From assembly GCA_041661045.1 (NCBI GenBank), contig JBAZVE010000001.1:480001-512000 (forward strand): a stretch of DNA of 32,000 nucleotides, written 5' to 3'. A model generated the notes under the pieces. It did not search any database. It worked only from the letters and a program-made list of their open reading frames with translations, and had not been told where the DNA came from. Positions 7,587-30,972 of the stretch are shown here, piece after piece. Numbering within the stretch: the stretch's first letter is position 1; every line of letters starts with the position of its first letter. Origin of the DNA: Candidatus Saccharimonadota bacterium. Its GTDB lineage: Bacteria > Patescibacteriota > Gracilibacteria > UBA1369 > 2-02-FULL-48-14. A program made the translations under genes and the position numbers.

Positions 7587-8669
7587 TTACTGTGATTTTA
7601 GACTGGCTTCAATGAATTCGTCCAGCTCTCCGTTCAAAACTTTGTCCACCTGGCTGGTCTCGTGATCGGTACGGTGGTCTTTTACCATTTGGTACGGCTG
7701 CAAAACATAGGAGCGGATTTGGTTGCCCCAGGAATGCTGCACATGATCGCCGCGGATTTCTTGAATGGTGCTCAAATGGTTTTGTTCTTGCAGTGCGAGC
7801 AGTTTGGTTTTGAGCACTTTGAGTGCGTTTTCGCGGTTTTGAACCTGACTGCGTTCGGTTTGGCAGGCTACGCTGAGGCCTGAAGGAAGGTGGGTGACGC
7901 GGGCGGCGGTGCTGGTTTTGTTCACATTCTGCCCTCCGGCGCCACCGGCACGGAAAAAGTCCCATTCCAAGTCGTCTTCCTTTATTTCCAGTTCCACTTC
8001 ATCCAGATCCGGCACCACTTCCACCATGGCGAAAGAAGTTTCGCGGCTTTGCTTGGCGTTGAAAGGGGAGAGGCGAACTAGGCGATGCACCCCGTGTTCG
8101 TGCTTGAGGTAGCCGTAGGCGTAGGCGCCGTCTACTCGAAAAGAGGCGCTTTTGATTCCCGCTTCTTCGGCGGGAGAGAGGTCCAGTTGAGTGGCTTTCC
8201 AGCCACGGGCTTCGCAGTACCGTAAATACATTCGCATGAGCATTTCGGCAAAATCTTGCGCGTCCACGCCCCCGGTTCCCGCGTGAAAAGAGAGGATGGC
8301 GTTTTCCGCATCGTATGGGCCGCTGAGGTAGAGCTCAATGCTCAGGTGTCCGTGCAGCTTTTCGGCTTCAGCGGTGTCTTTTTCAATCTGATTCACGGTT
8401 TCTTTGTCGGACTCCTCCACCATACTGGTGAGGTCCAAAAGATTCTGAGCGTCGTGCTCCAATTTTTCCCAGGACCCGATGGTTTCACGGATCAGCCCTG
8501 CCTCTTTGGATATTTTTTGCGCATGAGCTTGATCGCTCCAAAAATCGGGTGCGGCCATTTCCGCTTCCAGAGTGGAGAGCGCGGATTTCTTTGCAGGCAA
8601 ATCCAAATGTTTGAGGGATTTCTTCACCTCATCTTGGAGCAGTAGCAGTCTATCTTTGATTTCTTGCAT
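7587..8669 (-). CDS. prfB: peptide chain release factor 2
   Basis: Has the GGQ motif (AGGAGGQNVNK) and the RF2-specific SPF tripeptide (RLSPFNAKQ). It is a single uninterrupted 360-aa frame. It ends 2 nt before the def start. Confidence 0.95.
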   Translation of the reverse strand: MQEIKDRLLLLQDEVKKSLKHLDLPAKKSALSTLEAEMAAPDFWSDQAHAQKISKEAGLIRETIGSWEKLEHDAQNLLDLTSMVEESDKETVNQIEKDTAEAEKLHGHLSIELYLSGPYDAENAILSFHAGTGGVDAQDFAEMLMRMYLRYCEARGWKATQLDLSPAEEAGIKSASFRVDGAYAYGYLKHEHGVHRLVRLSPFNAKQSRETSFAMVEVVPDLDEVELEIKEDDLEWDFFRAGGAGGQNVNKTSTAARVTHLPSGLSVACQTERSQVQNRENALKVLKTKLLALQEQNHLSTIQEIRGDHVQHSWGNQIRSYVLQPYQMVKDHRTDHETSQVDKVLNGELDEFIEASLKSQ

Positions 8670-13938: not shown

Positions 13939-14169
13939 TTGTCCACTGTTTCCACTCTTTTTACACGAGTTTTGCACAAATTTACTACTTTTGAGGTTAA
14001 AGTTTTGCACTTTCTTGTTTTTTTAACCTCAGGGTTTTTTGTCTAAACGACAAGAAATATGCGTATTGGGCCTTAATTTTGGGTGTTTTGGCAATACCTT
14101 ACTATTTATAACTACAATTTTATATATATTACTTTTGTTTAGAAAATTGCTTATGGACAGAGTGGATAA
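13939..14169. other. candidate replication-origin-like region (DnaA-box-like sites plus AT-rich block) upstream of dnaN
   Basis: Sites compared with TTATCCACA / relaxed TTWTNCACA:
- TTGTCCACT, 13939-13947
- TTTTACACG, 13959-13967
- TTTTGCACA, 13970-13978 (full relaxed match)
- TTTTGCACT, 14003-14011
- TTATGGACA, 14151-14159
- AGTGGATAA, 14161-14169 (reverse complement TTATCCACT, 8/9)
An AT-rich block at 14101-14150 includes TATATATATT. Confidence 0.35.
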
Positions 14170-14203
14170 AATTTGATTGTATGAGTTCGATTTCCCAATC
14201 TAT

Positions 14204-15307
14204 ATGAAACTCACTTGTTCCCAAGCCGACCTTGCTCTTGCTCTTTCTTTGGTGAATAGAGCGGTGAGCCCAAACAACACCCTTCCCGTGCTTAATAATA
14301 TTTTAATTAAAGCGGAGGGGCGAAAACTTTTTCTTTGTGCCACCAATTTGGAAATTGCAATCAGTGCATCTTTTGATGCAGATGTTCAAAACGAAGGAAC
14401 GCTGACTGTTCCTGCGAAAGTTTTTAGTGCGTACGCGAGTTTACTTGAGGAAAATACCGTGGAAATGGGCGTTTTAAATGGAAATACGCTGGTTATTCGT
14501 ACCGATGGATCCGAAAGTAAGATGAAGGGAATCTCGAGCGAAGAATTTCCTTTACTACCCAAACTCGAAAACCCAAAAGTATTTACACTTTTAGTGGAAC
14601 CCCTTAAAGAAGCGATTGAACAGGTTGTTTTCGCAGCATCCACAAATGTTTCTCGGCCCGTACTCACCGGACTTTACTGGAAACTCGAGGCAAAAGTTTT
14701 AAAACTAGTGGCCACAGACAGTTATCGACTGGGTGAAAAAACAGTGGAAGTTCCTGAAAATGACGAAGAACTTTCTTTTATAATCCCCTCAAAGACCGCG
14801 CAAGAACTCTTAAAGATTTTGGAAAGCACGAATGAAAAGAGTTTTGAAGTTCGAATAGGAAAGGGGCAGATTTTATTTAAAGTGGGCGGTGTGGAAATCA
14901 TTTCCAGGTTGATCGACGGTACTTTTCCAGATTATGAGCGAATCATTCCAAAAGAAATTAAAACGGAACTCACACTCTCCAAGGAAGACTTTATTCTAGC
15001 CCTCAAAAAACTTTCCGTGATTGTACGAGAAAACAACAACAATGTTAAAATTCGTACCGAAAAAGATAAATTACTCGTGTTTAGTGATGAAACTCAAGTT
15101 GGACAAGGGGCCTGTGAAATTCCAGTACAGGGTGGGAGCGTAGAAACCGTTGAAACCGCACTCAATGTTCAATACCTCTTGGATGTTTTGGCTCACATAA
15201 AAGATGAAAAAGTTCATTTCAGCTTGAACGACGGACTTTCTCCTGTTATGGTGACGCCTGCCCAAGCGAGCGGGTATTTGCATATCATTATGCCCCTCAA
15301 AATTTAA
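14204..15307 (+). CDS. dnaN: DNA polymerase III beta sliding clamp
   Basis: MKLTCSQADLALALSLVNRAVSPNNTLPVLNNILIKAEG is a canonical DnaN N-terminus, with three-domain length (~367 aa). The ATG at 14204 is preferred over the tracked TTG at 14177. Confidence 0.93.
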   Translation: MKLTCSQADLALALSLVNRAVSPNNTLPVLNNILIKAEGRKLFLCATNLEIAISASFDADVQNEGTLTVPAKVFSAYASLLEENTVEMGVLNGNTLVIRTDGSESKMKGISSEEFPLLPKLENPKVFTLLVEPLKEAIEQVVFAASTNVSRPVLTGLYWKLEAKVLKLVATDSYRLGEKTVEVPENDEELSFIIPSKTAQELLKILESTNEKSFEVRIGKGQILFKVGGVEIISRLIDGTFPDYERIIPKEIKTELTLSKEDFILALKKLSVIVRENNNNVKIRTEKDKLLVFSDETQVGQGACEIPVQGGSVETVETALNVQYLLDVLAHIKDEKVHFSLNDGLSPVMVTPAQASGYLHIIMPLKI

Positions 15308-15310
15308 CGG

Positions 15311-18300
15311 GTGCCAACCTTTTTGAGTCCAGTGAAAGAATGTAGACATTTGATCAAGCTTTTTCCTTCCGGTCAAAACCTGAAGGTCATTGAGCAATTT
15401 AAAGACCAGGGTTATTCCTCACTTTCAGGGAGCGGGAATTATTCCTCAAAGGCTTTTTTAGTTTCGGATGTTTTAAGAGAGCTCAAAGACATCAATAAAG
15501 TGCTTTGGATTTGCAGTGATCAAAACCACAAAGAGAATATTATTCGTGCCCTTTCTTTGTGGAGTGAGGTTCCGGTTTATGACCTTAATCTCGAAGAAAA
15601 TCCAACAAGAAATAGAGAGGTGGAACGGAAGAACAAGGTCAAGAAAATGGAGTTTTTGAGTTTTACTCTTCAAAAAGAGGCGGCCCGATTTTACATCATT
15701 CAATACAAGGACCTTTTCCCCACATACCCCAACCTTAATGAAATAGAGAAAAGCGTTTTAAAACTTTCTCAGCGAGATGAAATCGACAGCATGGACTTTT
15801 TTGAATCTTTGATAGAACTTGGTTATGAGGTTGCCGATGACTCTTTTGTGGAAAAAGGGGAGTATTTTCGGCACGGAGATTTGCTCACCATTTGGCCGGT
15901 GAACAGTGAGCTGCCGCTGCGCATTGAGCTCGCCTTTGATGAGGTGGAGAAAATAACCCTCTTCGACCAGAATAAAAAAGAAGCCATTTCTGAGATTTCT
16001 TCGGTGGAAATTTACCCCATCGACATTCCGGACGGCAGCAGCAAGCTGCTCAGCACTTTTGGACGGGGGTCTTTGGTTTTGGACGACGAAGTGGAATTTC
16101 CGGACAGTGAAACGGAGGCCTTTGAAGCGGCGATGGCGGAAAGGAATTCGGAATCCAGATACATCGAGTTCCGATCCTTTATGGAGGAGACCCCGTACCA
16201 CCACCACCTTCATTATCTTTCGGTTCTTAAATATTATAATCCGCTCGACTTCATCGCCGATCTGCGAGAAAAAATCATGCAAGAGTGGACGGTCTTTTTG
16301 TTCACCAAACATCCCGAGCAGTACCACAAGCTGTTTGAAGAAAAGGGGATAGCGTGCAGGAATTACAGTAATGGAGATTACCGCGGTGGGGCGGAAGTGG
16401 TGCTTTTCCCCATTGGCCAGGAGGATGTTTTCCCCGAGGCTTTTCAAAACCCGGCGCTCAAGCTCACGCTGATTACGGATCGAAATATTGGGAATTTTGT
16501 GGAGACGGAGAAGCGCGCGCCGGAGCGGCAAAAAGTGTACACCGACTTTCTAACCGGACTCAAAACCGGAGATTTTGTGGTGCACAGTGATCATGGAATT
16601 GGGCTGTTTTTGGGCTTGGATAAGCGCACCATTGAGCAAGTGACTCGTGAGTATTTGAAGATTGGCTACGCCGAAAACGACAAGCTTTTTGTGCCGATTG
16701 ATCAGGCGGACAAGGTTTCCAAATTCATCGGGTCCGGAGACCGGCCGCCAAAACTCACACGACTTGGCAGCGCGGAATGGAGTACGCTCCAAAATCGAGT
16801 ACGCAAAGAAACCGAGAAAATCGCACAAGAACTGCTGGAACTTTACGCCGAACGGGAAAGCGCTCGCGGCTTTGTTTTTAGTGGGGACACTCAACGGATG
16901 ATTCAGTTCGAGAAGAATTTTGAGTATGAGGAAACGCCCGGACAGACGCGTGCCATTTTGGATGTGAAGCGAGACATGGAAGGGAAGAAGCCCATGGATC
17001 GACTGGTGTGTGGGGATGTTGGGTTTGGGAAAACGGAAGTTTCTATGCGGGCCGCGTTTAAGGCGGTTGAAGGGGGGAAGCAGGTTGCGGTTTTGGCGCC
17101 GATCACCATTCTTGTGGACCAGCACTACAAAAACTTTAAGAAACGAATGGAGGGATTTGATGTCCGCATCGAGATGTTGAGCCGCTTTCGCTCGCCCGCC
17201 GAACAAAAGAAAATTCTCCGCGCGCTGGAGAAGGGAGAGATTGATATTATTATTGGGACGCATCGATTGCTTCAAGGCGACATCAAATTTAAAGACCTCG
17301 GGCTCGTGATTATTGATGAGGAACAGCGCTTTGGAGTGAAGCAAAAAGAGGCGCTTAAAGACTTGCGCAAGGAGGTGCACATTCTCACGATGACCGCTAC
17401 GCCGATTCCACGAACGCTCAACATTTCTTTGCATGGGCTGAGGGACATTTCCACCATCACCACGCCGCCTCCCGGACGGCTCCCCATTGTTACCGAGGTG
17501 CGGCGGTTTTCACTCGGGCTTATTAAAAGTACGGTGGAAAAAGAAATTGAACGGGGCGGGCAAATTTACTTTTTGCACAACCGCGTGCAAACCATCGATG
17601 ACATGGCCGCTAAGCTGCGATCCTTGCTCCCAAAGGCTCGGATTGTGGTTACGCACGGAAAACTCCGCCCAGACGACCTGGAGCAGCGAATTTTGGCATT
17701 TAAGAATGGGGAGTACGATATTTTAGTGAGCTCCACGATTATTGAAAATGGAATTGACTTGCCCAACGCCAACACCCTCATTGTGAACAGTGCCGAGCGC
17801 TTTGGACTGGCGCAATTGTACCAGCTCCGCGGGCGCGTTGGGCGCAGCCGAAAACAAGCCTACGCGTACTTTTTGTACCACATGAAGCGCCTACCGCTGG
17901 ACGCAAAAAAACGGCTCCGCGCCATTGTGGAGGCCAATGAACTCGGCGCCGGATTCCAAATTGCGATGAAAGATTTGGAGATCCGTGGAGCGGGAGATAT
18001 TTTGGGCGCAAATCAAAGCGGCGCCATTCAGGTGGTGGGAGTTTCGCATTTTATTCGCATGCTCAATCAAGCCGTGGATGACCTCAAGAAGGGACGAAAG
18101 GTCGCCGAAGAAAATGGCATCCCCGAGGTGACCATAGAAATTCCGCTGCCCGCCTATGTGCCGGATGAATACATTGTGAGCTCCAAAGAAAAGATTTCCG
18201 TTTACCAAAAGTTGGCGGGCGCCGATACTTTGGAATACCTCACGGAACTGCGCACGGAGCTTACCGAAGATTATGGAAGAATGCCGGAAGAAGTGGGCAA

Positions 18301-18598
18301 CTTGTTCCGCGTGCTTGAAATCAAGATGCTCGCCAAAAAAGCCCGCGTTATTAATGTGAAAGCCGAAAATGTGCACAGCAGCGAGGACCGCCAAATCATT
18401 TTGCACATGTCTTCTTTTGTGAAGCCGGAAAACATTTTGTCCATGCTGGAATGCAACTCCAAGTGGATCATCTCCGGCACCAAACTCAAAATCAGCTTCA
18501 AAGACCTCGGCGTGGGCTGGGTGGAAGAACTCAAAAAGAGCCTCGCCGCACTGGGCAAAAAAGCTAAGAATGTGCCCGGAAGCGAGGTGGAGAAGTGA
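15311..18598 (+). CDS. mfd: transcription-repair coupling factor Mfd
   Basis: Contains the RNAP-interacting/CarD-like segment (GDFVVHSDHGIGLFLG), a superfamily-2 helicase core (GDVGFGKTEV, DEEQRFG, TATPIPRTL, QLRGRVGR) and a TRG region. It starts with GTG 3 nt after the dnaN stop. Confidence 0.93.
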   Translation: MPTFLSPVKECRHLIKLFPSGQNLKVIEQFKDQGYSSLSGSGNYSSKAFLVSDVLRELKDINKVLWICSDQNHKENIIRALSLWSEVPVYDLNLEENPTRNREVERKNKVKKMEFLSFTLQKEAARFYIIQYKDLFPTYPNLNEIEKSVLKLSQRDEIDSMDFFESLIELGYEVADDSFVEKGEYFRHGDLLTIWPVNSELPLRIELAFDEVEKITLFDQNKKEAISEISSVEIYPIDIPDGSSKLLSTFGRGSLVLDDEVEFPDSETEAFEAAMAERNSESRYIEFRSFMEETPYHHHLHYLSVLKYYNPLDFIADLREKIMQEWTVFLFTKHPEQYHKLFEEKGIACRNYSNGDYRGGAEVVLFPIGQEDVFPEAFQNPALKLTLITDRNIGNFVETEKRAPERQKVYTDFLTGLKTGDFVVHSDHGIGLFLGLDKRTIEQVTREYLKIGYAENDKLFVPIDQADKVSKFIGSGDRPPKLTRLGSAEWSTLQNRVRKETEKIAQELLELYAERESARGFVFSGDTQRMIQFEKNFEYEETPGQTRAILDVKRDMEGKKPMDRLVCGDVGFGKTEVSMRAAFKAVEGGKQVAVLAPITILVDQHYKNFKKRMEGFDVRIEMLSRFRSPAEQKKILRALEKGEIDIIIGTHRLLQGDIKFKDLGLVIIDEEQRFGVKQKEALKDLRKEVHILTMTATPIPRTLNISLHGLRDISTITTPPPGRLPIVTEVRRFSLGLIKSTVEKEIERGGQIYFLHNRVQTIDDMAAKLRSLLPKARIVVTHGKLRPDDLEQRILAFKNGEYDILVSSTIIENGIDLPNANTLIVNSAERFGLAQLYQLRGRVGRSRKQAYAYFLYHMKRLPLDAKKRLRAIVEANELGAGFQIAMKDLEIRGAGDILGANQSGAIQVVGVSHFIRMLNQAVDDLKKGRKVAEENGIPEVTIEIPLPAYVPDEYIVSSKEKISVYQKLAGADTLEYLTELRTELTEDYGRMPEEVGNLFRVLEIKMLAKKARVINVKAENVHSSEDRQIILHMSSFVKPENILSMLECNSKWIISGTKLKISFKDLGVGWVEELKKSLAALGKKAKNVPGSEVEK

Positions 18599-19100
18599 GC
18601 GCGGCGACGGCATTTTTAAGACTGCCTCTGACGACTGCAATCGCGGAGGGCTCCGAGCCTTCTGGGGAGGGCGTTTGAGCTAGATGGTGCTTTAAAAGCG
18701 GCAGGACCTCCTTAAGTCCAAGGGAAGCAATGGCATCGATCAGCAAAGATTTTGCGACAGGATCCGACTCCCAATCCAGCTGCTCCGCTAAAATGAGCCC
18801 GTTGAATTGGAGACCCCCCCGCCCTATAATGCGATACAGCGTTCTACGAATCTTGTGGTCTGGCGTACGCAGAAGTTTTAAGAGCTCTTCTTGAAGCGGC
18901 TCCGGAATGGCTGGTGCGGATTCTGACAAGTATTTGAGGAGTTCCCAGACTTCTTCAGGGCTGAACCCCGAGAGACGAGCTGCGGCTTGTGTCAAAACAT
19001 CTTTCGTGGACATGTTGTTATGAGTAGGGAGGTCAAGATACAAACAGACCAACGGGTCGAGGTCTAGTATTTGCGGTACTTCGGGTAAGGTAGCATCCAT
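18564..19100 (-). CDS. small alpha-helical, HEAT-repeat-like protein (178 aa), last gene of the orphan operon
   Basis: Segments LLKLLRTPDHKIRRTLYRIIGRGG and DWESDPVAKSLLIDAIASLGLKEVLPLLKHHL resemble HEAT/PBS-lyase-type repeats. Its ATG lies 9 nt after the protease stop. Its 3' end overlaps the mfd 3' end by 35 nt. Confidence 0.5.
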   Translation of the reverse strand: MDATLPEVPQILDLDPLVCLYLDLPTHNNMSTKDVLTQAAARLSGFSPEEVWELLKYLSESAPAIPEPLQEELLKLLRTPDHKIRRTLYRIIGRGGLQFNGLILAEQLDWESDPVAKSLLIDAIASLGLKEVLPLLKHHLAQTPSPEGSEPSAIAVVRGSLKNAVAALTSPPRFRAHS

Positions 19101-19109
19101 AAAAGAGGG

Positions 19110-20480
19110 TTATGCGGCTGGGCGGAGGACTAGTCCCACGCTTTTCTCCATTGCGGTAAATTCTTCGGAGAGAGCGGCTCTAATGCGATCGTTGGCCTCC
19201 GACCGAATGAGAGTTCTCATCGCTACTATTAATTGTTGGTTATCCCCTCTTTGTACGCCCAATAAGTCATAAACATTTGCATTGGCGAATTCGCGATGAA
19301 TGGCATCCGTTATTGCGGTTTCATTGGACAAACTTCTCCAGCCTTCCAACGCTTTGCCGAGAGGGGAAGCATGCGCCTCTAAACTGGCCGGGAGCAGGCT
19401 ATTGAAACCAGGGGCTAAACGCTGCAATTCATCAAGAAGCACTGCACTTAAGGTTGGATTTGTCTCTAGGTCTACGAGCGAACGCATGGCCATTCCCAGC
19501 CCAGCCACATCTCCGTTTCTTACCCCAAGTAAGGCGAAAAGGTCTCCGCCAGAAAGCCTTTCCGTCAAAACCTGCTTCATAACGATTTCACTTTGAATCT
19601 CTCTTAAACGCGCAATGGTTTGGCTTAGGGGTGAGGCCTGTGGGGCTAATATGACAAAGGAGAGTACCTCAAAATTATTTTGAAAGGCCTCCACTGAAAG
19701 TTGAAAAGGTTTTGATGTGTCATGGGGGTTCTCCAGGGTGACCAACTGGCGCACCTTGTCGTAAGCAATTATCGCATAGGCGTGAGGGCCAACCAATTTG
19801 TGACCTTCAACAACAATTTCGCCGCGTATTCTAGGAGTACCTGCGGTCAATATACGCCTTCCCGGGTTGTCGGCAGAATATTCCAGGGAACTCAGAGCGC
19901 TCTTAGCCGAAATGCTTATGGGCTTTAAGGCAAGCCCTTTCCCAAGTAGATGTGCCACAGCCTCTTCCCCATAGCCCCCTTCCACAGGGTAGCCCCCTTG
20001 CTTGTCTTTCAATATGGTGCCCCCTCGTGCGTCATGTATTTCCATACTTCTTGAGGAAGCGTAAGCGAGTTCCAAAATAATGTCCCCCAAAGGAGCGTTT
20101 GTTTTTGAATGATATTTCTCCCATGCTTCAGCGCTTCTAACCACGCCCGCCGGGGTCCATTCGTCGCTCCCCGTTCGTTTTACTCGATAGGGGCCTGGGT
20201 GCTTGGCTCCCGGGATGGTGACTTCCCACAAGTCCGGACCCACTTCTTTGATATTTTGGGCGACCATTTGTTTGAACACTTCAGGCGATGTTTTACGAAT
20301 GGCATTTATGGCGGTCAAGAGGTAGCAAACGCCGATTTGACCCTGTCGAATGTTAGAGTCTATGCCGAGGGGATAGAGCTTTTTGAAGAGGGCCGCCTCC
20401 GCGTTGATTTTTGTCCTTAAATGGAGGAGGTCTAAGTCGGCTGCTTTTTTTTGCACGGACTCAGGGGTAGCGGAGTCCAC
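19110..20480 (-). CDS. calpain-like (clan CA, C2-like) cysteine protease with two C-terminal helical repeats (456 aa)
   Basis: Three catalytic motifs match calpain:
- RQGQIGVCYLLTAINA (Cys52) versus QGxLGDCWLLAA
- LVGPHAYAIIAY (His233) versus GHAYS
- TLENPHD (Asn251) versus RNPWG
The Cys-His-Asn order and spacing are calpain-like. The start is GTG at 20480 (20-nt overlap with the upstream gene) or GTG at 20456. Confidence 0.7.
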   Translation of the reverse strand: MDSATPESVQKKAADLDLLHLRTKINAEAALFKKLYPLGIDSNIRQGQIGVCYLLTAINAIRKTSPEVFKQMVAQNIKEVGPDLWEVTIPGAKHPGPYRVKRTGSDEWTPAGVVRSAEAWEKYHSKTNAPLGDIILELAYASSRSMEIHDARGGTILKDKQGGYPVEGGYGEEAVAHLLGKGLALKPISISAKSALSSLEYSADNPGRRILTAGTPRIRGEIVVEGHKLVGPHAYAIIAYDKVRQLVTLENPHDTSKPFQLSVEAFQNNFEVLSFVILAPQASPLSQTIARLREIQSEIVMKQVLTERLSGGDLFALLGVRNGDVAGLGMAMRSLVDLETNPTLSAVLLDELQRLAPGFNSLLPASLEAHASPLGKALEGWRSLSNETAITDAIHREFANANVYDLLGVQRGDNQQLIVAMRTLIRSEANDRIRAALSEEFTAMEKSVGLVLRPAA

Positions 20481-23400
20481 ACTGGTCTTGATTTTGAAGA
20501 AAAAGTTGGTGATCTTTGCGGATGCGCTCTGAGAGCGCTTTGGAGGCTGATTCTAATCGGCCACTAAGGTCAGCACGAAGAGCTAAGTCGGAGATACTTG
20601 GCAGAAGACGCCGCTGGGAAGCGATACTATCCATATGACTACGAAGCTCCAGAACCCATTTTTCGCTTAGGATGTCTCCCCCGCCCAGGACGCGGAGAAT
20701 GTAGGAATTTTGTACGATCTTTTCCATGGTCTCGTCGACGGTTGTTAACCATGTTGCGACGCCTTCACAAACTTGACCGACGGCTTTCAAGATTTCTTTC
20801 GGGCGGAGGACCAGTGGGGGAGTTTCTGTTTCGGTTGGCGCCTTTTCTTCGGCGGTTTTGCCCCGTTCCAGGAGTGTACCTACAGTTTTTTTAAGCTCGT
20901 CTTGGAGCTTGGCGTACTCGTCGACAAGGGCTTTCGCTCGGTTTGCGTCTACATGATCGGGAAGAGGAATTTCATTTCGGACCATTTTTAGGAAATCCTC
21001 TTGCTTTAGGCCGTTTTCTTTACAGAAGGCGGCCATTTCTTTTTGGAGCTGGACACCGCGCTTGTTTACGCGGCTGACATTATTGAGAGTGACATCATCC
21101 GCTTCGACGGCTCCTTTTGTGAAACGACGAAGGGCTGGGCCTCCGAATTCAAAGCCGACTCCAAGGCCGAAAAACATGGCGTTGTTTTGTAGATTTTCCG
21201 CAAAACTTCCTCCGGTGAAAATGGTGTCCAGAGTGGTGCCCAGGGCAACATCTGCGCCCCCTTCCATGGTTGCGCCAATCAAGCGGTTTCCAAGGGCCAT
21301 GCCGTCATCCAGAGAGGAGAGCACGCGCATGCCACCTTTTTCCGTGGCGAGGCGGACGATTTGTTTGGCTTCGGGAGAGAGGGCCATGAGGCGCCCATTT
21401 CGTACGACTGCGGATCCAATGGCTCCGGAGCGTTGAAGTTGGTAAACGGCGCGACCGGCAGCCATGTATCGGGCTGCACCCATGGTCACCGTGTTTACGG
21501 CCATCTCTTTCCCATAAGCATCCACGAAACCTTCAGGGCCATCCTCAAACCCCTTTTGATTGATCACCGCGTTGGAGGCCGTCATGGCGGCTCCGCCCAC
21601 CAAGGCGGCACCCACTACGCCCAGCCCACCCGTTCCAATGGCCACCGCCACGCCCACACCAATAGACGCTGCTATTTTTGTGCCCATTTTTGCGTAGGCC
21701 CAACTTTTGTCACTGGCATTCCAGGAACCGAAGCCTTGGATGTCCGTGAGCAAGTTGACGCCTTCCACCTGGTAAGGTTCCAGGGAAATGCCCAAGTTGT
21801 TTTGAATTTCTTCGGGAGAAGAAGCATTTTTTTCGAGGTATTCTTCAAACTGGGATTGAGCGCCCTCTAGACATGGACCGAGAAAAATCTGAACGGTTTT
21901 TGTGAGGGCTTCATCCGAGGGAAGGGCTTGGCCATCCCGCAAATGTTGAATTTGGAAAATAATGGCGGTGGAAGCCCCTAGCTCTTCAATGCTGTTCACC
22001 GGAGCGGTTAGGATCCCTTTTGCTGCGCTTAAGTCTGGGTTGTTTTGCTCTTCAATCCAGGTAAGAGCTGCCGTTTTTTCTTCGCTAAGCACTTGGGCGA
22101 TATCCACTTTATCAGGAAGCAGCTCGCCGGATTCGTTGATGAGCTCCAGCAGGATTTTTTCGCTGTTGGCGGCTTCACGAGCCAAATCAGACGCCCATCC
22201 TGGGTCGCGGAGATCATCATCAATAGAGCCCAGCCTTCCACTGAATAGTTTGGCAACGGCGACACAGCTTTTTGCGTAGGAAGCGTAGTCCCCACCGGTT
22301 TTTTCGGTGGTGAGCTTCTCGGCCAGTTGTTGCTTGATTACCGTGAAGAGCTTTTGATAATCCAGCTTGAGCTCGTCACTTTGGAACTCGTTGTTGTCTA
22401 CTTTTTCATGGAGTTCCAGTGTCCACCCGATTGCTTCGTCGATGGACATGAGAGGCATAGTGGTTTGGGTCACTTGCATGGCGGCTTCAATATTTCTCGC
22501 GGCGGAATTCTCAAGGGTTTCATCGATGTTCGCGCTCAGCTCTACAAAGCGCTTGCTGTTTGTGAGGTAGCTGTCGCGCGTTTTTTTGTACTCTTCGGTG
22601 GCTTTTTCTTTTGGCAGAGCCTCCGTGAGGCTCGCGGATAGGCCCTCTAAGTTTTCTTGGCAGGCTGCGCTGATTTGAGACAAGGCTTGCTGTTCTTTTT
22701 CTCGGTCGTCCCACATATCCATTGCATTTGCCGCGGTGAGCGCTTTTTCCAGAAAAGCGACGGTCCCGTGGGCGGTGGGATCCAGAACAAAACCGTCTTC
22801 AAAGTCTTCGTCCAGGGCGAGCTTACGGCCGGCCTCCTCGTTTTGTTCGGTGGCGAGCCTTTTTTCAACCAGGGTCTGAATATAGCTTGCCCTTAGCTCT
22901 CCATTGGCAATAGAGGCATCGCTTAAATCTTCTTTGATCTGATCGTCAGTCTGCATGGCGACCTCTGTGTCCAGCTCCTCGGCAACAGCGTTAAGGGCTT
23001 TTGCGTACTTAGGTTCGACCGCGGCATACCAACGGATTGCCTCTACGCTTGGGATGGCGGTAGTTTCTGCCGCTGCGAGGTTTAAGTGTTCGCCGATTTC
23101 CAGTTGATCAGGCCGTGCTTGGGTTGTTTTTAAAGAAAACTCACCATTTTCATCAATAAAAGGGGTGGTTCCCGTTTGAGTGCGCTCGGCCTGAAGTTTC
23201 TGAATGATGGCGAAGTGTTTTCTTGGATCTTCTTTCCATGGTATGCCAAGCTCTCGTTCAACAATCAGAGACAGGTTGTCCCCATTTTCGACAGGGTACT
23301 TTCCCTTTTTCCATTCACGGTAAGCGGCGATGGAGGTAGAGAGGGTTTCGAGGGTTTGGCTGAGGTCCGCTTGCAGCCGGCTAATCTCTTCTGGCGAGGA

Positions 23401-23625
23401 GGCCTCTTTGAGCAGACCAAGAATGTTTTGTGAAAACGCCTCTTGTAGGGCAGGCTCTGCCACTTGGTTTTTGAGAGTTTCTTGGAAACGGTCCACCCCC
23501 TCAATAAATAGGGTCAGAGCCCGGTCTTTTTCTTGAGCATCATCCAGGATGGGTTTGTCTGAGGCCTCAATGGTTTTTTGGACCCGCTCCTGCTGCTTGT
23601 TGATGGAGTTTTCCGAATTTATCAT
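20461..23625 (-). CDS. large orphan protein with central glycine-zipper hydrophobic hairpin (1054 aa from Met34 of the tracked ORF)
   Basis: A long ORF with no signal peptide. The N-terminal ~650 aa are acidic and helical. KIAASIGVGVAVAIGTGGLGVVGAALVGGAAMTASNAVI spans ORF aa 683-721 (nt 21562-21678). A second patch, MFFGLGVGFEFGGPAL, lies at nt 21133-21180. The preferred ATG at 23625 shares ATGA with the stop of the upstream 104-aa ORF. Confidence 0.7.
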   Translation of the reverse strand: MINSENSINKQQERVQKTIEASDKPILDDAQEKDRALTLFIEGVDRFQETLKNQVAEPALQEAFSQNILGLLKEASSPEEISRLQADLSQTLETLSTSIAAYREWKKGKYPVENGDNLSLIVERELGIPWKEDPRKHFAIIQKLQAERTQTGTTPFIDENGEFSLKTTQARPDQLEIGEHLNLAAAETTAIPSVEAIRWYAAVEPKYAKALNAVAEELDTEVAMQTDDQIKEDLSDASIANGELRASYIQTLVEKRLATEQNEEAGRKLALDEDFEDGFVLDPTAHGTVAFLEKALTAANAMDMWDDREKEQQALSQISAACQENLEGLSASLTEALPKEKATEEYKKTRDSYLTNSKRFVELSANIDETLENSAARNIEAAMQVTQTTMPLMSIDEAIGWTLELHEKVDNNEFQSDELKLDYQKLFTVIKQQLAEKLTTEKTGGDYASYAKSCVAVAKLFSGRLGSIDDDLRDPGWASDLAREAANSEKILLELINESGELLPDKVDIAQVLSEEKTAALTWIEEQNNPDLSAAKGILTAPVNSIEELGASTAIIFQIQHLRDGQALPSDEALTKTVQIFLGPCLEGAQSQFEEYLEKNASSPEEIQNNLGISLEPYQVEGVNLLTDIQGFGSWNASDKSWAYAKMGTKIAASIGVGVAVAIGTGGLGVVGAALVGGAAMTASNAVINQKGFEDGPEGFVDAYGKEMAVNTVTMGAARYMAAGRAVYQLQRSGAIGSAVVRNGRLMALSPEAKQIVRLATEKGGMRVLSSLDDGMALGNRLIGATMEGGADVALGTTLDTIFTGGSFAENLQNNAMFFGLGVGFEFGGPALRRFTKGAVEADDVTLNNVSRVNKRGVQLQKEMAAFCKENGLKQEDFLKMVRNEIPLPDHVDANRAKALVDEYAKLQDELKKTVGTLLERGKTAEEKAPTETETPPLVLRPKEILKAVGQVCEGVATWLTTVDETMEKIVQNSYILRVLGGGDILSEKWVLELRSHMDSIASQRRLLPSISDLALRADLSGRLESASKALSERIRKDHQLFLQNQDQCGLRYP

Positions 23626-23936
23626 GAGAGGCTTTTCGTTAGATCTGACTCTGCTTCGTTGACTTCTTGTTTGTGTAAAGACTCGTGGACGGTACGAGTT
23701 GTTTTTCGTTTCAAAACACCCCACTTTTTCAGCACACTTTTCATGGAAGAGGGGCTGGCCGCTTCTTTCAGATGGGCTTTAAGTGAGGCCTCATTTTTTT
23801 CTAAAACTAAAATCAGCGCCGTTTTCTCAAAGTCGTCCATGCCTTTGAGCTCGCTCAGAAGCAGATCCTTTTGTGCTTTGCTCAGGAGAAGGTTTTTCAC
23901 CACAAGCGCTTCGACACGGTCGGTGGAGGTTGCCAT
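23622..23936 (-). CDS. small helical orphan protein (104 aa)
   Basis: ORF with helix-favouring, Lys/Glu/Leu-rich composition. Its stop overlaps the start of the large downstream gene (ATGA at 23622-23625), implying translational coupling. Confidence 0.55.
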   Translation of the reverse strand: MATSTDRVEALVVKNLLLSKAQKDLLLSELKGMDDFEKTALILVLEKNEASLKAHLKEAASPSSMKSVLKKWGVLKRKTTRTVHESLHKQEVNEAESDLTKSLS

Positions 23937-25224: not shown

Positions 25225-25659
25225 GGGGATGTACAGGCTTTGACAGAAAGATTAGAAGTCCGTTGCCTGCTTTCAGGTGGTTGCTTGGTCCCACCTTAAC
25301 CCGTCCAAGCAAATTAAGTGCTAAAACCACTGCAGAGATCATCCGCGAAGACGCTCTACGACTTGCTCGTTCTGCGTTTCAACCAGCCCGTGCTTTGGCA
25401 CTCGCTGCGTAGTTGATCTTGAACCGTCATTAAGTACGGTTCCGCTCACTCATCGACGCCTTGTGGATGAAATGGGTGTAATAATCGAGGCTTAGGGAAA
25501 CTCCTGCTTGTGTTCCGGGGGCGTACTGAAACTTTGAAGACACGACAGCGGTGCTTTTGTCCACCTTTTATACCGCTGCCGTAGACAAAGTGGACTATGA
25601 AAGTAAACGGTTTCGCACTTCCTTTTTGGACGCGGGTTCGATTCCCGCCATCTCCACCA
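25225..25659 (+). ncRNA. ssrA: transfer-messenger RNA (tmRNA, ssrA), one-piece
   Basis: The 5' end GGGGATGTACAGGCTTTGAC matches the tmRNA consensus GGGGnUG....GGnUUCGAC. The 3' end is GGACGCGGGTTCGATTCCCGCCATCTCCACCA, a T-arm plus acceptor plus CCA. The acceptor GGGGATG/CATCTCC includes the G3:U pair. An internal reading frame ends ...ARALALAA-TAG (stop at 25410-25412), a classic tag terminus. Confidence 0.9.
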
Positions 25660-27971: not shown

Positions 27972-28622
27972 CTAACCAACAAGCAGCCTATTTAGGTGAG
28001 GATATGTAGAGCCAAAGCTTTCGACGGATCTCACACAGTACAAAGCCCTCACCGTAGCAGTGGCAGGAGTATTGTTGCGGTTGGAAAAATGTGCACACCT
28101 GCCTACGGAAATCAAAGGATCTTGAATGTAAGCTATCCCGTCGGGGCAGTACTCAAGCAAGTTCATAAGGGGGCCGAGACGGAGGCACTCCACCTCTACA
28201 TCAAGATCTCCCTTAATAGGGCTGCCGGTGTAGACATCTGTGCGCAAAACATGAAAAGCAAATCCTACCTGGGTTTGTACGTCTCTTTCTTCGACAGTCC
28301 CTACTAAAATAACATTGCCCGGCCTTAGATCGCGAGGATCGATAGCAACGAGTGAACGCAAGCCAAAATCCTCTACCGTAGGTATCCCCAATGGTGGCTT
28401 CTCTCTGAGCGCTCGCCTCGTTTGAGATAGTAATAGGCCCGCCTCTTCCTCTAGTTTTAAGAAATCTGCTATGGGCCTCATGCGCTCGTTGTAGCGATCA
28501 AGTGCATCTACAGGACCAGACCCTTGGGCTGGGCGTGCCCCTGTGTATAAAGACGGTGCTCGCATATACTTTGGAGAGTAAGCTAAAGTGGGTAGGATGC
28601 CACAAAACGCTGCTTGTGTCAA
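27972..28622 (-). CDS. hypothetical protein (up to 216 aa)
   Basis: ORF only. It lies 21 nt downstream of the zinc-ribbon gene. Its start is uncertain because there are internal Met codons. Confidence 0.45.
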   Translation of the reverse strand: MTQAAFCGILPTLAYSPKYMRAPSLYTGARPAQGSGPVDALDRYNERMRPIADFLKLEEEAGLLLSQTRRALREKPPLGIPTVEDFGLRSLVAIDPRDLRPGNVILVGTVEERDVQTQVGFAFHVLRTDVYTGSPIKGDLDVEVECLRLGPLMNLLEYCPDGIAYIQDPLISVGRCAHFSNRNNTPATATVRALYCVRSVESFGSTYPHLNRLLVG

Positions 28623-28643
28623 TATCTTGTGGGGGCCAAAGCT

Positions 28644-28919
28644 TCACCCAATGTTCTCCCAGAAGCATTTTTGGCAGTAAATAGTGTAGGGGGCTTCGGG
28701 CGGGTAGACGGAGAGCATGTCTTGTTGGCATTTGGCGCAGGTGCGTTTGTACATTTGCCGTTCGCTTCGAAGTGCCATGCGATGGCGGTGACGACAAGTT
28801 GGACAATGAGTGGGGGGTGGCAAATTTTTGCGCTTATAAAAGTCGGCTTCGGCGCTGATGACCAGGAAGTTTCTTCCGCAGTTGGGAGTGCTGCATTGAA
28901 GGGAAGGAGAGGCGTTCAT
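28644..28919 (-). CDS. double zinc-ribbon protein (91 aa)
   Basis: Four Cys pairs are present: C9/C14, C39-P-T-C42, C61-A-K-C64 and C82-Q-K-C85. They occur in the context FLVISAEADFYKRKNLPPPTHCPTCRHRHR...MYKRTCAKC...YTIYCQKCFW. The ATG at 28919 lies 5 nt after the upstream gene's stop. The upstream part of the tracked 202-aa ORF only overlaps the neighbouring gene and is not counted. Confidence 0.7.
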   Translation of the reverse strand: MNASPSLQCSTPNCGRNFLVISAEADFYKRKNLPPPTHCPTCRHRHRMALRSERQMYKRTCAKCQQDMLSVYPPEAPYTIYCQKCFWENIG

Positions 28920-28924
28920 AGTGT

Positions 28925-29899
28925 TTAGAGGATTAAGGGTGAATCGGTTTCGGTTTGGAGGCGGTTGTGTTCGTAGTCGGAGATGAAGTAGGGCGTGAGA
29001 TTGTAGTGGCCGCCTGCAATGAGCTCTTGGTGGATTTCGGCGACTTTTTTGGCGTAGTCTTCGGGTGAGTAGGGCTGATTTAAAATGTGGTATTCCTTGT
29101 TTTCCAGGTAGACGCAGCCGAAGCAGTTTTTGAGGTTGCGGGAGTAGGCGCAGAATTCGGAATCGCTGGAGCGGTCGGTGTGGAGACAGAAGTTGCAGTT
29201 GAAGCAGAGTGGGGACTGCACACAGCTGTAGAGGGCCTCGGCTTCGAAACAAACGGTGAGGTCCACACAGTCTTTGTTGGCATTGGCTTCCACGGTGTAG
29301 AGGCAGTCTTCGGAGGCAAAAATGTCGTAGCAGTTGAAGCAGTTTTTACTTTCCGTAATGTGATCGCCGGTGCAATTTTCGGTCATAGTTTGATGGAAGG
29401 CGGGGAGAGGGGTTTTGCGTTTCAACGCTTCCACTTGTGTTTGGATGAAGGCGAGGTGATCGGGATTGGAGAGATCGAATTGGGCGATTTTTTGCACATA
29501 TTCTTCTTTGCTGAGAGGCTGGTTGAAGAGGTGATATTGTTTTTGATAGAGCCCCACACAGCCGAAACAATTTTTGCAGCCGTAACAGTCTTGGCTGTAT
29601 TGGCATTCGGCGCAGTTTTGGCAGTCCTGGCAGAAGTCGCAGCTGTAGCAATTGACGCAATCGACGCATTCGGTGCACCACTGACAATTCACGCAAAACG
29701 ACACGCCGCTACAGTCACTGCATTTGCGGGAATAACGACCGTAGTACACATCTTCGCAGTAGAAAACGCCGAAGCAGTAATAGCAGTTTTTAGACTTCAC
29801 CGCGGTGTCCGAATAGCCACAATTTTCGGCCATGACGAGCTTGAGGTTGTAACGGGGCTGCGTCCGCAAAAGATTTTGGAATTCTTGTATGAAAGGCAT
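28925..29899 (-). CDS. extremely Cys-rich repeat protein with internal duplication (324 aa, ~34 Cys)
   Basis: MPFIQEF... start at 29899. In the run CVNCQWCTECVDCVNCYSCDFCQDCQNCAEC (nt 29603-29695), Cys recurs every third residue 11 times. The protein has two colinear halves, each ending NCFGCV(G/Y)L..K.YH(L/I)(F/L)NQP.S.E(E/D)Y..K(I/V)A. Confidence 0.75.
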   Translation of the reverse strand: MPFIQEFQNLLRTQPRYNLKLVMAENCGYSDTAVKSKNCYYCFGVFYCEDVYYGRYSRKCSDCSGVSFCVNCQWCTECVDCVNCYSCDFCQDCQNCAECQYSQDCYGCKNCFGCVGLYQKQYHLFNQPLSKEEYVQKIAQFDLSNPDHLAFIQTQVEALKRKTPLPAFHQTMTENCTGDHITESKNCFNCYDIFASEDCLYTVEANANKDCVDLTVCFEAEALYSCVQSPLCFNCNFCLHTDRSSDSEFCAYSRNLKNCFGCVYLENKEYHILNQPYSPEDYAKKVAEIHQELIAGGHYNLTPYFISDYEHNRLQTETDSPLIL

Positions 29900-29943: not shown

Positions 29944-30906
29944 CTATTCGCGGTCTTCTTGGGGGTCTAACGCCCATGTCGCCAACCGGTTAATGCGTGC
30001 GATAATATTATCTAATTCTTTTCTTTTCTTGAGGGCTTCTCTTTCCGGTGAATCCTCAAGAGGAATTACGCTAGCCACCAGGTTCTCCATAGGAAGTAAT
30101 GCTATTCTTCCGTCCGCCCCTCCCCCCCTTGCTTCACCATGAACTCCTAATACGTGGCGATCCAAGATATATAAAGTGTCAGTATCTCCTCCAACATTAC
30201 AGCCATGAAGGGACCGTAATTCATGAAGATTACTTACTATTGTGATATTTTCTTCCGCTATGCCTAGCTCGGTCATCCATGTCTTAATGTGTTCTGCTCG
30301 TGTTTTTCCGTTAAAAAATGAGTTTCTAATACTTGAAAATGGTGGATGATCGCCGAGGTTGCTTCCTACTATACAAACTTTTGTGAGGCCTTTCGCTTCC
30401 ATGTGGGGCGCTATAAGCTCTTTCAACCTTTCCCCAAATGCATCCATTTTTTGTTTGTAAAATTCGTCTGAGAATCCATCGATTGAGTAAAGCATTTGCC
30501 TACGTTTTCCTTCGTCATCAGGTAATTGGTCAGCGTATTTCAAAGCATCGTCAAACACCATATCTAGAGTCTCACCGGCTATGAGCCTTTCCTGACCTTT
30601 AGGAGTAGCCTCTCCTAGTGCAATTGAAGTTGTACGGTCAAGTATATGCACATGTGTTGAAAGATCTTTCCCTAGTACATCTAGTATTTTATTTTGGATT
30701 TCCTCATTAGTGGCTTCCACCGGGAATGCCACCAATGTTGTAGGATGGCCTTCAGCTTCAAGCCTGGCTCTTATCTCTGGGAGTTTGGTCGCATATAGGT
30801 CATTGTCTCTGTAGACAAGTGCGATCGGGGTGTGTTTTCCAGACATGGTGATGTGGGTTAATTTGTTTAGAGCCAAGAGAGTATTATGACTCATTTTTGG
30901 TATCAT
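29944..30906 (-). CDS. hypothetical protein (up to 320 aa), first gene of the Cys-rich operon
   Basis: Clean ORF with no motif I can name. Alternative starts are Met5 (30894) and Met21 (30846). It looks more AT-rich by eye than the neighbouring genes. Confidence 0.55.
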   Translation of the reverse strand: MIPKMSHNTLLALNKLTHITMSGKHTPIALVYRDNDLYATKLPEIRARLEAEGHPTTLVAFPVEATNEEIQNKILDVLGKDLSTHVHILDRTTSIALGEATPKGQERLIAGETLDMVFDDALKYADQLPDDEGKRRQMLYSIDGFSDEFYKQKMDAFGERLKELIAPHMEAKGLTKVCIVGSNLGDHPPFSSIRNSFFNGKTRAEHIKTWMTELGIAEENITIVSNLHELRSLHGCNVGGDTDTLYILDRHVLGVHGEARGGGADGRIALLPMENLVASVIPLEDSPEREALKKRKELDNIIARINRLATWALDPQEDRE

Positions 30907-30942
30907 GTCGACAACAAGCTGTCATTTTGTTTAATTACAGGG

Positions 30943-30970
30943 TATAATTGATGTAGAAAGTTAATCTACA
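30943..30970 (+). promoter_or_regulatory. putative promoter (-10 TATAAT) and inverted-repeat operator in the divergent region
   Basis: TATAAT lies at 30943-30948. The inverted repeat TGTAGA (30952-30957), 7 nt, TCTACA (30965-30970) ends 2 nt before the ATG of the TrmB-family gene. Confidence 0.35.
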
Positions 30971-30972
30971 GT

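What the first reader, a model, noticed from the sequence alone, without database searches (positions are those of the whole stretch)
19110..20480. Bacterial calpain-like cysteine protease with a complete Cys-His-Asn triad
Three short motifs fall in the order and approximate spacing of the calpain (peptidase C2) catalytic core:
- QGQIGVCYLL (Gln46/Cys52) versus QGxLGDCWLL
- VGPHAYAII (His233) versus GHAYS
- LENPHD (Asn251) versus RNPWG

The oxyanion Gln sits exactly 6 residues before the Cys, as in papain and calpain. The Cys-to-His distance is 181 aa and the His-to-Asn distance is 18 aa. Calpain-like proteases are uncommon in bacteria. Here the domain has no signal peptide and is fused to a novel C-terminal repeat region.
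Basis: partly seen in the sequence, partly recalled or inferred. Interest (0 to 1): 0.65.

Follow-up and report, generated by a model that had tools for sequence, protein, structure and literature searches.

The report
Split calpain-like protease, CPR bacterium
The ORF really does encode a divergent calpain-type cysteine protease with intact catalytic residues, but it is the detached C-terminal part of a large membrane-anchored protein that is a single polypeptide in related bacteria, so it is a new member of a known kind of enzyme.

Summary
ORF 19110-20480(-) encodes 456 aa with Gln46, Cys52 (its only Cys), His233 and Asn251 exactly where stated. The calpain reading is supported.
- Pfam Peptidase_C2 is borderline for this sequence: 22.6 bits for the whole ORF and 24.4 for the domain, against a cut-off of 23.8.
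- An exhaustive search finds 206 relatives. In them Q46, C52 and H233 are invariant and N251 is always N or D.
- 29 of 30 aligned family members hit Peptidase_C2.
- The family profile finds only calpains in the PDB (best E = 1.2e-9).
- An AlphaFold model (pLDDT 92) matches only calpain cores at E ≤ 1e-3.

The protein is not a stand-alone enzyme. The upstream 1054/1087-aa ORF, which has a Gly/Ala-rich hydrophobic hairpin, overlaps the protease ORF by 20 nt. In all four relatives that carry this N-terminal module, the two parts are one ~1480-1590-aa protein. An independent read assembly reproduces the split with 100% identity. The "novel C-terminal repeat" is a duplicated ~85-aa helical module found after the calpain domain in several relatives. 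A HEAT-like downstream gene is syntenic in the closest relative. The closest relative is a Candidatus Peribacteria (CPR) genome. Bacterial calpains are already described (Rawlings 2015), so this is a new member of a known kind, with a modest curiosity in the gene split.

The parts
19110..20480 (-). Protease ORF. 456 aa from the mechanical GTG at 20480. The likely real start is the GTG at 20456, giving the 448-aa form used by public gene calls. Stop is TAA at 19110-19112.
19626..20408 (-). Calpain-type (Peptidase_C2, clan CA) protease core, residues ~25-285. An N-terminal helix (residues 6-35) packs onto it in the model.
20325..20345 (-). Codons for the oxyanion-hole Gln46 (20343-20345) through the nucleophile Cys52 (20325-20327). 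The motif is QGQIGVC. Cys52 lies at the N-terminus of model helix 52-64.
19722..19784 (-). Codons for His233 (19782-19784), Asn251 (19728-19730), Pro252 and His253, forming the HAY ... NPH motifs. His233 lies at the start of strand 234-241 and Asn251 at the end of strand 246-251.
19386..19640 (-). C-terminal helical module, copy 1 (residues ~281-365). It contains the motif SPL...GGDLFALLGVxxGD...NP.
19113..19385 (-). C-terminal helical module, copy 2 (residues ~366-456).
20454..20552 (-). Junction of the split gene.
- The protease frame is open from 20552.
- The upstream frame ends ...TAC CCC TGA (stop at 20461-20463).
- The protease frame is the upstream frame shifted by +1.
- Candidate starts are GTG 20478-20480 and GTG 20454-20456, the latter 4 nt after the stop.
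- A T5 run lies within the 20-nt-plus overlap zone, and an A8 run lies just downstream at 20445-20452.
20461..23625 (-). N-terminal half of the split gene. 1054 aa from ATG 23625 (the mechanical ORF runs from GTG 23724 and gives 1087 aa). It is 44% identical over ~930 aa to the N-terminal part of the fused 1576-aa Peribacteria protein.
21562..21687 (-). Gly/Ala-rich hydrophobic segment of ~42 aa, residues 680-721 in the 1087-aa numbering. It is long enough for a two-helix membrane hairpin.
   Evidence: Kyte-Doolittle, peak 1.96; conserved in P0002
18564..19100 (-). Downstream 178-aa ORF, 9 nt after the protease stop. It has a sub-threshold HEAT_2 match and is conserved in the same position in the Peribacteria locus (39% identity, E = 2e-29).

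Best explanation
Residues ~25-285 of the ORF form a catalytically competent calpain-type papain-fold cysteine protease (MEROPS family C2, clan CA).

Expected catalytic roles:
- Cys52 is the nucleophile, at the N-terminus of the central helix.
- His233 is the general base.
- Asn251 orients the His.
- Gln46 forms the oxyanion hole.

Family placement. The domain belongs to a divergent bacterial subfamily found in CPR lineages (Peribacteria, Saccharibacteria, Gracilibacteria), Melainabacteria, Myxococcota, Acetobacteraceae and others. In this subfamily the protease usually sits at the C-terminus of large, otherwise uncharacterised proteins. It has no EF-hand or C2-like domain. It also lacks the ~34-residue segment after NPW that holds the second Ca2+ site in classical calpains, so it is probably not Ca2+-switched the way classical calpains are.

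The split. In this genome the ancestral gene has been split in its linker by a +1 frame change. The ancestral layout was:
- a ~650-aa helical region,
- a Gly/Ala-rich membrane hairpin,
- a linker,
- the calpain core,
- an ~85-aa helical module.

What is shown and what is inferred:
- Shown: the two halves are adjacent overlapping ORFs, the split is present in two assemblies, and a conserved HEAT-like gene follows.
- Inferred: the protease half (448 aa, now with the helical module duplicated) is translated separately, by coupling or reinitiation at the GTG 4 nt after the upstream TGA.
- Inferred: it works together with, or on, the membrane-anchored N-terminal half. By analogy with other tethered proteases, the fused proteins may normally release the protease by autoprocessing.
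For: Family membership and active site:
- Motif positions are confirmed.
- PF00648 scores 24.4 bits against a cut-off of 23.8 for the domain.
- There are 206 homologues at E ≤ 1e-3.
- The catalytic residues are invariant in 150-151 domains and in alignment A1.
- 29 of 30 members hit PF00648.
- The family profile hits only calpains in the PDB, with the catalytic motifs aligned.
- The AF2 model has pLDDT 92, and all 28 significant Foldseek hits are calpain cores.
- Cys, His and Asn sit at the canonical papain-fold secondary-structure positions.

Split gene:
- P0002 (1576 aa, Ca. Peribacteria MAG) aligns to the upstream ORF at 44% identity over 937 columns.
- P0002 aligns to the protease ORF at 46% identity over 357 columns.
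- P0113, P0057 and the 1571-aa ORF of L032 are also fused.
- The frame geometry of the junction is established.
- The Logan contig L065 from SRR18595301 is 100% identical over 9084 bp with the same two ORFs.
- All conserved housekeeping genes in the window are intact, so there is no sign of a high indel error rate.
- Stand-alone family members with the domain at the N-terminus exist, such as P0005, P0006 and P0027.

No classical Ca2+ apparatus:
- No other Pfam domain is found.
- 13-14 residues lie between the NP[H/W] proline and the conserved Phe in 138 of 157 domains, where calpain-8 has 34 more.
- Rawlings 2015 (PMC4631099) reports that bacterial homologues generally lack the Ca2+ sites.

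Synteny of the HEAT-like gene.
Against: - The single-sequence Pfam score for the whole ORF is below the gathering threshold (22.6 against 23.8).
- Foldseek TM-scores are only 0.42-0.50 with rmsd of 6-7 Å.
- The triad distances in the model were not measured.
- Asp51, in the GDC motif (D in 67% of the family), is Val here.
- Separate translation is not shown. No Shine-Dalgarno sequence precedes either GTG.
- The TAAC motif seen before 8 of 17 starts in this window is present only as a one-off variant (CTACCCC) before GTG 20456.
- All four relatives that carry the N-terminal module are fused, so the split could equally be a recent inactivating mutation.
- No substrate, localisation or activity data exist.
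Confidence: 0.8

Rival explanations
1. The split is a recent inactivating frameshift and the gene is a pseudogene in the making. The protease ORF is then poorly translated or not translated, and the calpain domain, although intact in sequence, is no longer used in this organism.
For: - All four relatives with the N-terminal module are fused in frame.
- No SD sequence and no canonical TAAC start motif lie upstream of either GTG.
- A T5 run lies inside the ~90-nt zone where both frames are open.
Against: - Both halves are otherwise uninterrupted, at 1054 and 448 codons.
- The break falls at the domain boundary. Homology to the fused orthologue resumes at residue 17, and the model helix starts at residue 6.
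- A GTG sits 4 nt after the upstream stop.
- The C-terminal module has been duplicated in this lineage, which looks like continued evolution rather than decay.
- All catalytic and near-invariant family residues are retained.
Confidence: 0.2
2. The split is a sequencing or assembly artefact, a 1-nt insertion, and the real gene encodes a single ~1500-aa fused protein as in the relatives.
For: The relatives are fused. Homopolymer runs (T5, A4) lie in the overlap zone.
Against: - An independent Logan assembly of run SRR18595301 gives a 9084-bp contig that is 100% identical with no gaps.
- Three sources (JGI/IMG, NCBI, Logan) all call separate proteins.
- Eight conserved genes covering ~4100 codons in the window have no frame breaks.
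Confidence: 0.08
3. The two ORFs are joined at the ribosome by a programmed +1 frameshift at CCC_UGA_G. Peptidyl-tRNA-Pro would slip from CCC to CCU while the RF2-dependent UGA is in the A site. This would give both a 1054-aa membrane protein and a ~1500-aa protease fusion, in a ratio set by RF2 availability.
For: - The protease frame is exactly +1 of the upstream frame.
- The last sense codon plus the stop reads CCC_UGA, so a slip to CCU_GAG enters the protease frame directly.
- UGA is a rare stop in this window, ending 3 of 22 ORFs.
- The fused product would recreate the architecture of all relatives.
Against: - Of the four conserved prfB-type elements (SD-like sequence 3 nt upstream, pyrimidine slippery run, TGA, and a following C; PMC12421855), only the pyrimidine run and the TGA are present.
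- The following base is G, and there is no SD-like element.
- This genome shows no SD usage at all.
- Its own prfB is unshifted.
- No second genome with the same site is available to test conservation.
Confidence: 0.06
4. The three motifs are a chance resemblance and the protein is not a calpain-type peptidase. It would belong to another clan CA family or have a non-protease fold.
For: The whole-ORF Pfam score is below threshold. phmmer of the single sequence against the PDB finds nothing.
Against: - The family-level profile searches, residue conservation and structure search all point only to calpains.
- The next-best folds (ComA/PCAT C39 peptidase domains, phytochelatin synthase) have E ≥ 2.6e-3 and cover only about half the domain.
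Confidence: 0.02

Closest known systems
Bacterial calpain homologues (MEROPS family C2; Rawlings 2015, Biol Direct 10:66, PMC4631099), e.g. Tpr of Porphyromonas gingivalis
   Same: - The same Gln/Cys/His/Asn catalytic set in the same order.
- A Peptidase_C2 profile match.
- No EF-hand domains, and the core Ca2+ sites are largely missing.
- Patchy phyletic distribution.
- Some members are membrane-associated or part of multidomain proteins.
   Different: - Rawlings listed seven phyla and none from the CPR. The closest relatives of this protein are in Peribacteria, Saccharibacteria, Gracilibacteria and Melainabacteria.
- The domain is very divergent, scoring only borderline against PF00648.
- It is followed by an uncharacterised ~85-aa helical module.
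- In this genome it is detached from its N-terminal membrane module.
Classical eukaryotic calpain protease core (CysPc, subdomains PC1/PC2; CAPN1, 2, 3, 8, 9 structures 2g8e, 6bkj, 2p0r, 2nqa)
   Same: - They are the best and only significant structural and profile matches.
- Shared motifs are QGxxGDC[WY]hL, LExAYA, HAYS and NP[WH], plus a C-terminal 'EFxhSxxxF' strand.
   Different: - Sequence identity is 12-17%.
- The ~34-residue segment between NPW and EFWMS is missing. From my own knowledge of the Ca2+-bound core structures, that segment carries ligands of the second Ca2+ site.
- There are no C2-like or penta-EF-hand domains.
- His replaces the Trp of NPW here.
Membrane-anchored calpains of eukaryotes (DEK1/phytocalpain type: N-terminal transmembrane region, long linker, C-terminal CysPc). 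From my own knowledge, not tested here.
   Same: The overall logic of the fused orthologues is the same: a membrane-embedded N-terminal part, a variable linker and a C-terminal calpain core.
   Different: - There is no detectable homology outside the protease core.
- This protein has a single ~42-aa Gly/Ala-rich hydrophobic hairpin rather than a multi-pass domain.
- There is no C2L domain.
- In this genome the two parts are separate ORFs.

Membership tests
Peptidase family C2 (calpain), clan CA | Significant match to the family profile (Pfam PF00648 Peptidase_C2) | tested here: met
   The domain alone scores 24.4 bits against a cut-off of 23.8 (E = 1.8e-5). The whole ORF scores 22.6 bits, just under the cut-off. 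29 of 30 aligned homologues hit PF00648, with a best E of 2.3e-11. The family profile against PDB sequences returns only calpains as significant hits, down to 1.2e-9.
Peptidase family C2 (calpain), clan CA | Catalytic Gln (oxyanion hole), Cys, His and Asn present in that order and conserved | tested here: met
   Q46, C52, H233 and N251 are present. In the family, Q is 150/150, C is 150/150, H is 151/151 and N/D is 151/151. They align to the calpain QGxLGDC, GHAYS and NPW motifs.
Peptidase family C2 (calpain), clan CA | Two-subdomain calpain protease-core fold (PC1 helical, PC2 beta) | tested here: met
   The AF2 model has pLDDT 92 and pTM 0.89. The 28 Foldseek hits at E ≤ 1e-3 are all calpain cores, at probability 1.0, 272-339 aligned columns and TM 0.39-0.50.
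Peptidase family C2 (calpain), clan CA | Cys, His and Asn side chains within catalytic distance in the structure | not testable with these tools
   Model coordinates are not exposed. There is only indirect support: the residues lie at the canonical helix N-terminus and strand positions with pLDDT above 95.
Peptidase family C2 (calpain), clan CA | Thiol-dependent endopeptidase activity | not testable with these tools
   This needs biochemistry.
Classical (Ca2+-switched) calpains | Ca2+-binding loops in the protease core, plus C2-like and penta-EF-hand domains | tested here: not met
   No EF-hand or Calpain_III domain is found by Pfam. The segment after NP[W/H] that is 34 residues longer in calpain-8 is absent; 138 of 157 family domains have 13-14 residues there. 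The site-1 Asp equivalent is Asn43 here, and is acidic in only about half of the family. The assignment of ligands to these segments rests on my own knowledge of the calpain core structures.
prfB-type programmed +1 ribosomal frameshift | SD-like element 3 nt upstream, pyrimidine slippery run, in-frame TGA, C after the stop (PMC12421855) | tested here: not met
   The junction reads GGA CTC CGC TAC CCC TGA G. The CCCT run and the TGA are present. There is no SD-like element, and G follows the stop.
Genetic code 25 organism (UGA = Gly), as implied by the NCBI protein P0155 | In-frame UGA in conserved genes and loss of RF2 | tested here: not met
   There is no in-frame TGA in ftsA, ftsZ, femAB, prfB, the flippase, RNase J, dnaN or mfd, about 4100 codons in total. 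prfB is intact with SPF at 201 and GGQ at 245, and scores 459.6 bits against TIGR00020.

The most novel reading that the evidence does not exclude
The break between the membrane module and the protease is not a defect but a recoding switch. A +1 slip of tRNA-Pro at CCC_UGA_G would make a minority of ribosomes produce the full ~1500-aa membrane-tethered protease, while the rest terminate. An RF2-sensitive frameshift would then set the ratio of 'anchor only' to 'anchor plus protease' in a CPR bacterium that has no Shine-Dalgarno-type stimulator.
Probability: 0.06. Interest if true: 0.6.

Novelty: new member of a known kind. Interest (0 to 1): 0.33.

Why it matters
- It extends the known range of bacterial calpain-type proteases to the Candidate Phyla Radiation. 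Rawlings 2015 listed seven phyla, and none of them was a CPR lineage.
- It defines a sizeable, very divergent subfamily (206 cluster representatives) that single-sequence Pfam scans only just detect.
- In this subfamily the protease is typically the C-terminal module of large, uncharacterised proteins, some of them membrane-anchored.
- For small-genome, probably host-dependent bacteria, such proteins are candidates for envelope or host-interaction functions.
- The natural split of the gene gives a ready-made 448-aa soluble construct for biochemistry.
- None of this overturns current understanding. It is an annotation-level advance.

Tried and rejected
- **Single-sequence searches were uninformative.** phmmer against the PDB found nothing, NCBIfam found nothing, and single-sequence AlphaFold gave pLDDT 35.
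- **The word-indexed protein search was uninformative.** It found only the protein itself. With the family profile it found only one further protein.
- **Looking for the source genome or near strains failed.** Single-protein scans of genome contigs and metagenome contigs found nothing. Alignment-based scans found only relatives at ≤ 48% identity. Conservation of the split among sister strains therefore could not be tested.
- **The J-domain idea for the C-terminal repeat was rejected.** The 'DLFALLGV...' stretch resembles the start of a J domain, but there is no DnaJ or other Pfam hit and no PDB hit.
- **Tracing homology to the fused orthologue across the junction failed.** The linker is too divergent, and homology resumes only at protease residue 17.
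- **A start-proximal motif as evidence for independent initiation was equivocal.** TAAC is strongly associated with starts in this window, but the protease GTG has only a variant of it.
- **The N-terminal module matched no known family.** Nothing was found against Pfam, NCBIfam or the PDB.
- **Code 25 was considered and rejected.** See the membership test.
Full report
**1. Observation**

The minus-strand ORF 19110-20480 exists and encodes 456 aa. The three motifs are at the stated positions. They give Gln46, Cys52 (the only cysteine), His233 and Asn251, with spacings of 6, 181 and 18 residues. The protein has no hydrophobic segment.

**2. Is it a calpain-type protease?**

Single-sequence evidence is weak:
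- Pfam Peptidase_C2 scores 22.6 bits for the whole ORF (cut-off 23.8) and 24.4 bits for residues 1-290.
- phmmer against the PDB finds nothing.
- Single-sequence AlphaFold fails, with pLDDT 35.
- The word-indexed 5.8-billion-protein search finds only the protein itself.

The exhaustive HMMER search of 1.84 billion cluster representatives changes the picture:
- There are 206 proteins at E ≤ 1e-3 and 31 at E ≤ 1e-10, most of them matching query residues ~25-285.
- After one local profile iteration there are 157 domains.
- In those domains Q46, C52 and H233 are invariant, N251 is N or D in every case, and P252 is P in 150/151. Position 253 is H or W.
- The family consensus reads QG..GDCY[L]L ... 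LE.AYA ... HAYS ... NP[HW]DTSK.

Further family-level tests agree:
- 29 of 30 aligned members individually hit PF00648, with a best E of 2.3e-11.
- A profile of the alignment searched against PDB sequences returns only calpains as significant hits. Calpain-8 scores 1.2e-9, calpain-3 scores 1.2e-8, and m-calpain, calpain-5, calpain-9 and calpain-1 follow.
- The catalytic motifs are aligned residue for residue.

The structure agrees as well:
- With the alignment as input, AlphaFold2 gives pLDDT 92 and pTM 0.89.
- Cys52 lies at the N-terminus of helix 52-64, His233 at the start of strand 234-241 and Asn251 at the end of strand 246-251. This is the canonical papain-fold arrangement.
- Foldseek against the PDB gives 28 hits at E ≤ 1e-3, all of them calpain protease cores (probability 1.0, ~300 columns, TM 0.39-0.50).
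- Other clan CA folds follow with E ≥ 2.6e-3 and cover about half the domain.

**3. How it differs from classical calpains**

- No EF-hand or C2-like domain is present.
- Between NP[H/W] and the conserved Phe of the final strand, 138 of 157 family domains have 13-14 residues. Calpain-8 has 34 more residues there.
- From my own knowledge of the Ca2+-bound calpain cores, that segment carries ligands of the second Ca2+ site.
- This agrees with Rawlings 2015, who found that bacterial homologues generally lack the Ca2+ sites (PMC4631099).

**4.

The upstream ORF 20461-23724(-) overlaps the protease ORF by 20 nt. Its real start is ATG 23625, giving 1054 aa, and this exact protein is in public collections.

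The closest homologue of the protease is P0002, a 1576-aa protein from a Candidatus Peribacteria MAG (L001, 2365-7095).
- Its residues 1-923 align with the upstream ORF at 44% identity.
- Its residues 1213-1567 align with the protease ORF at 46% identity, including one copy of the C-terminal module.

Three other relatives that carry the N-terminal module are also single polypeptides: P0113 (1477 aa), P0057 (1589 aa) and the 1571-aa ORF of the marine contig L032.

The N-terminal half contains a ~42-aa Gly/Ala-rich hydrophobic stretch (residues 680-721) that could form a membrane hairpin. It has no match in Pfam, NCBIfam or the PDB.

**5. The junction**

On the minus strand the upstream frame ends ...CGC TAC CCC TGA (stop at 20461-20463). 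The protease frame is +1 relative to it and is open only from 20552. The candidate starts are GTG 20480 and GTG 20456, the latter 4 nt after the stop.

The split is not an assembler artefact:
- A Logan contig from run SRR18595301 (L065, 9084 bp) is 100% identical without gaps and carries the same 1054-aa and 456-aa ORFs.
- Eight conserved genes in the window are unbroken.

I consider four readings:
- A real fission with separate translation. I favour this one. The break is at the domain boundary, both halves are intact, stand-alone family members exist, and the C-terminal module has been duplicated here.
- A recent inactivating frameshift.
- Residual sequencing error.
- A programmed +1 frameshift at CCC_UGA_G.

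The frameshift reading is geometrically exact. However, it has only two of the four elements conserved in prfB-type sites (PMC12421855), and it cannot be tested for conservation because no closer relative is available.

**6. The C-terminal 'repeat' and the neighbourhood**

- Residues ~281-365 and ~366-456 are two copies of an ~85-aa helical module (local alignment score 103).
- The module occurs once after the calpain domain in P0002, and it is also found in P0020, P0006 and P0008.
- It matches nothing in Pfam or the PDB.
- The next gene (18564-19100) has a sub-threshold HEAT_2 match. It is conserved immediately downstream of the fused gene in L001 (39% identity, E = 2e-29), which suggests a functional partner.

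**7. Organism and genetic code**

- The window carries ftsA, ftsZ, femAB, prfB, a flippase, RNase J, dnaN and mfd.
- It comes from a 1.32-Mb contig.
- The best relative is a Peribacteria genome (lineage).
- The NCBI version of the upstream protein (P0155, 1090 aa) translates the TGA as Gly, which means code 25 was used.
- The window has a bona fide RF2 (SPF at 201, GGQ at 245; 459.6 bits) and no in-frame TGA in ~4100 conserved codons, so the organism uses the standard code.

**8. Comparison with what is known, and verdict**

- Bacterial calpain homologues were described in 2015 in seven phyla. They include membrane-associated and multidomain forms, and they lack the Ca2+ sites.
- A full-text search found no paper that connects calpain with CPR bacteria.
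- This is therefore a new, divergent, CPR-associated member of a known kind.
- The added curiosities are a naturally split gene and an uncharacterised accessory module.

Noticed in passing
window 20461-20463 (TGA) and public protein P0155: The NCBI version of the upstream protein (1090 aa) reads through this TGA as glycine, so that record was annotated with genetic code 25. The window itself indicates the standard code: RF2 is intact, and there is no in-frame TGA in ~4100 codons of conserved genes. The public annotation of this genome is probably wrong wherever a gene ends in TGA.
   Followed up: yes
window, 10-22 nt upstream of starts at 1768(-), 3423(+), 5293(-), 6024(-), 8669(-), 11882(-), 19100(-), 23625(-): No Shine-Dalgarno sequences are seen. 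Instead a (C/T)TAAC motif, often followed by a C-rich run (e.g. CTAACCCCTCTCT-ATG, TTAACCCCCTTAAGCT-ATG), precedes 8 of 17 start codons. The background probability is 0.027 per 22 nt, giving a post-hoc binomial p of about 5e-9. In two cases the TAA is the stop codon of the preceding gene. The motif is not seen in the AT-rich upstream regions of the Peribacteria locus L001.
   Followed up: partly
window 7587-8669 (-): prfB (RF2) is encoded in a single frame, without the programmed +1 frameshift that most bacteria use for autoregulation. TGA ends only 3 of 22 ORFs in the window.
   Followed up: partly
window 27972-29252 (-): The 202-aa ORF (28644-29252; weak treble-clef zinc-finger hit) ends in TGA. 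The next ORF (27972-28622, 216 aa) lies in the same frame only 7 codons later. This could be chance, a nonsense-interrupted gene or stop-codon read-through.
   Followed up: no
window 25225-25659 (+): A tmRNA gene is predicted, with the tag peptide AKTTAEIIREDALRLARSAFQPARALALAA. That tag is unusually long.
   Followed up: no
window 14001-16000 and 30001-31000: There are two low-GC stretches (0.39-0.42 against about 0.50 elsewhere). The first spans the intergenic region upstream of dnaN and the 5' part of mfd.
   Followed up: no
P0009, P0057, P0020, P0118 (family members): Calpain-like domains of this subfamily sit near the C-terminus of very large proteins (up to 4210 aa). Some of these carry a Metallophos domain (P0009) or an FHA domain (P0057). 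One protein (P0089) has two calpain domains, and another (P0142) has three partial ones.
   Followed up: partly
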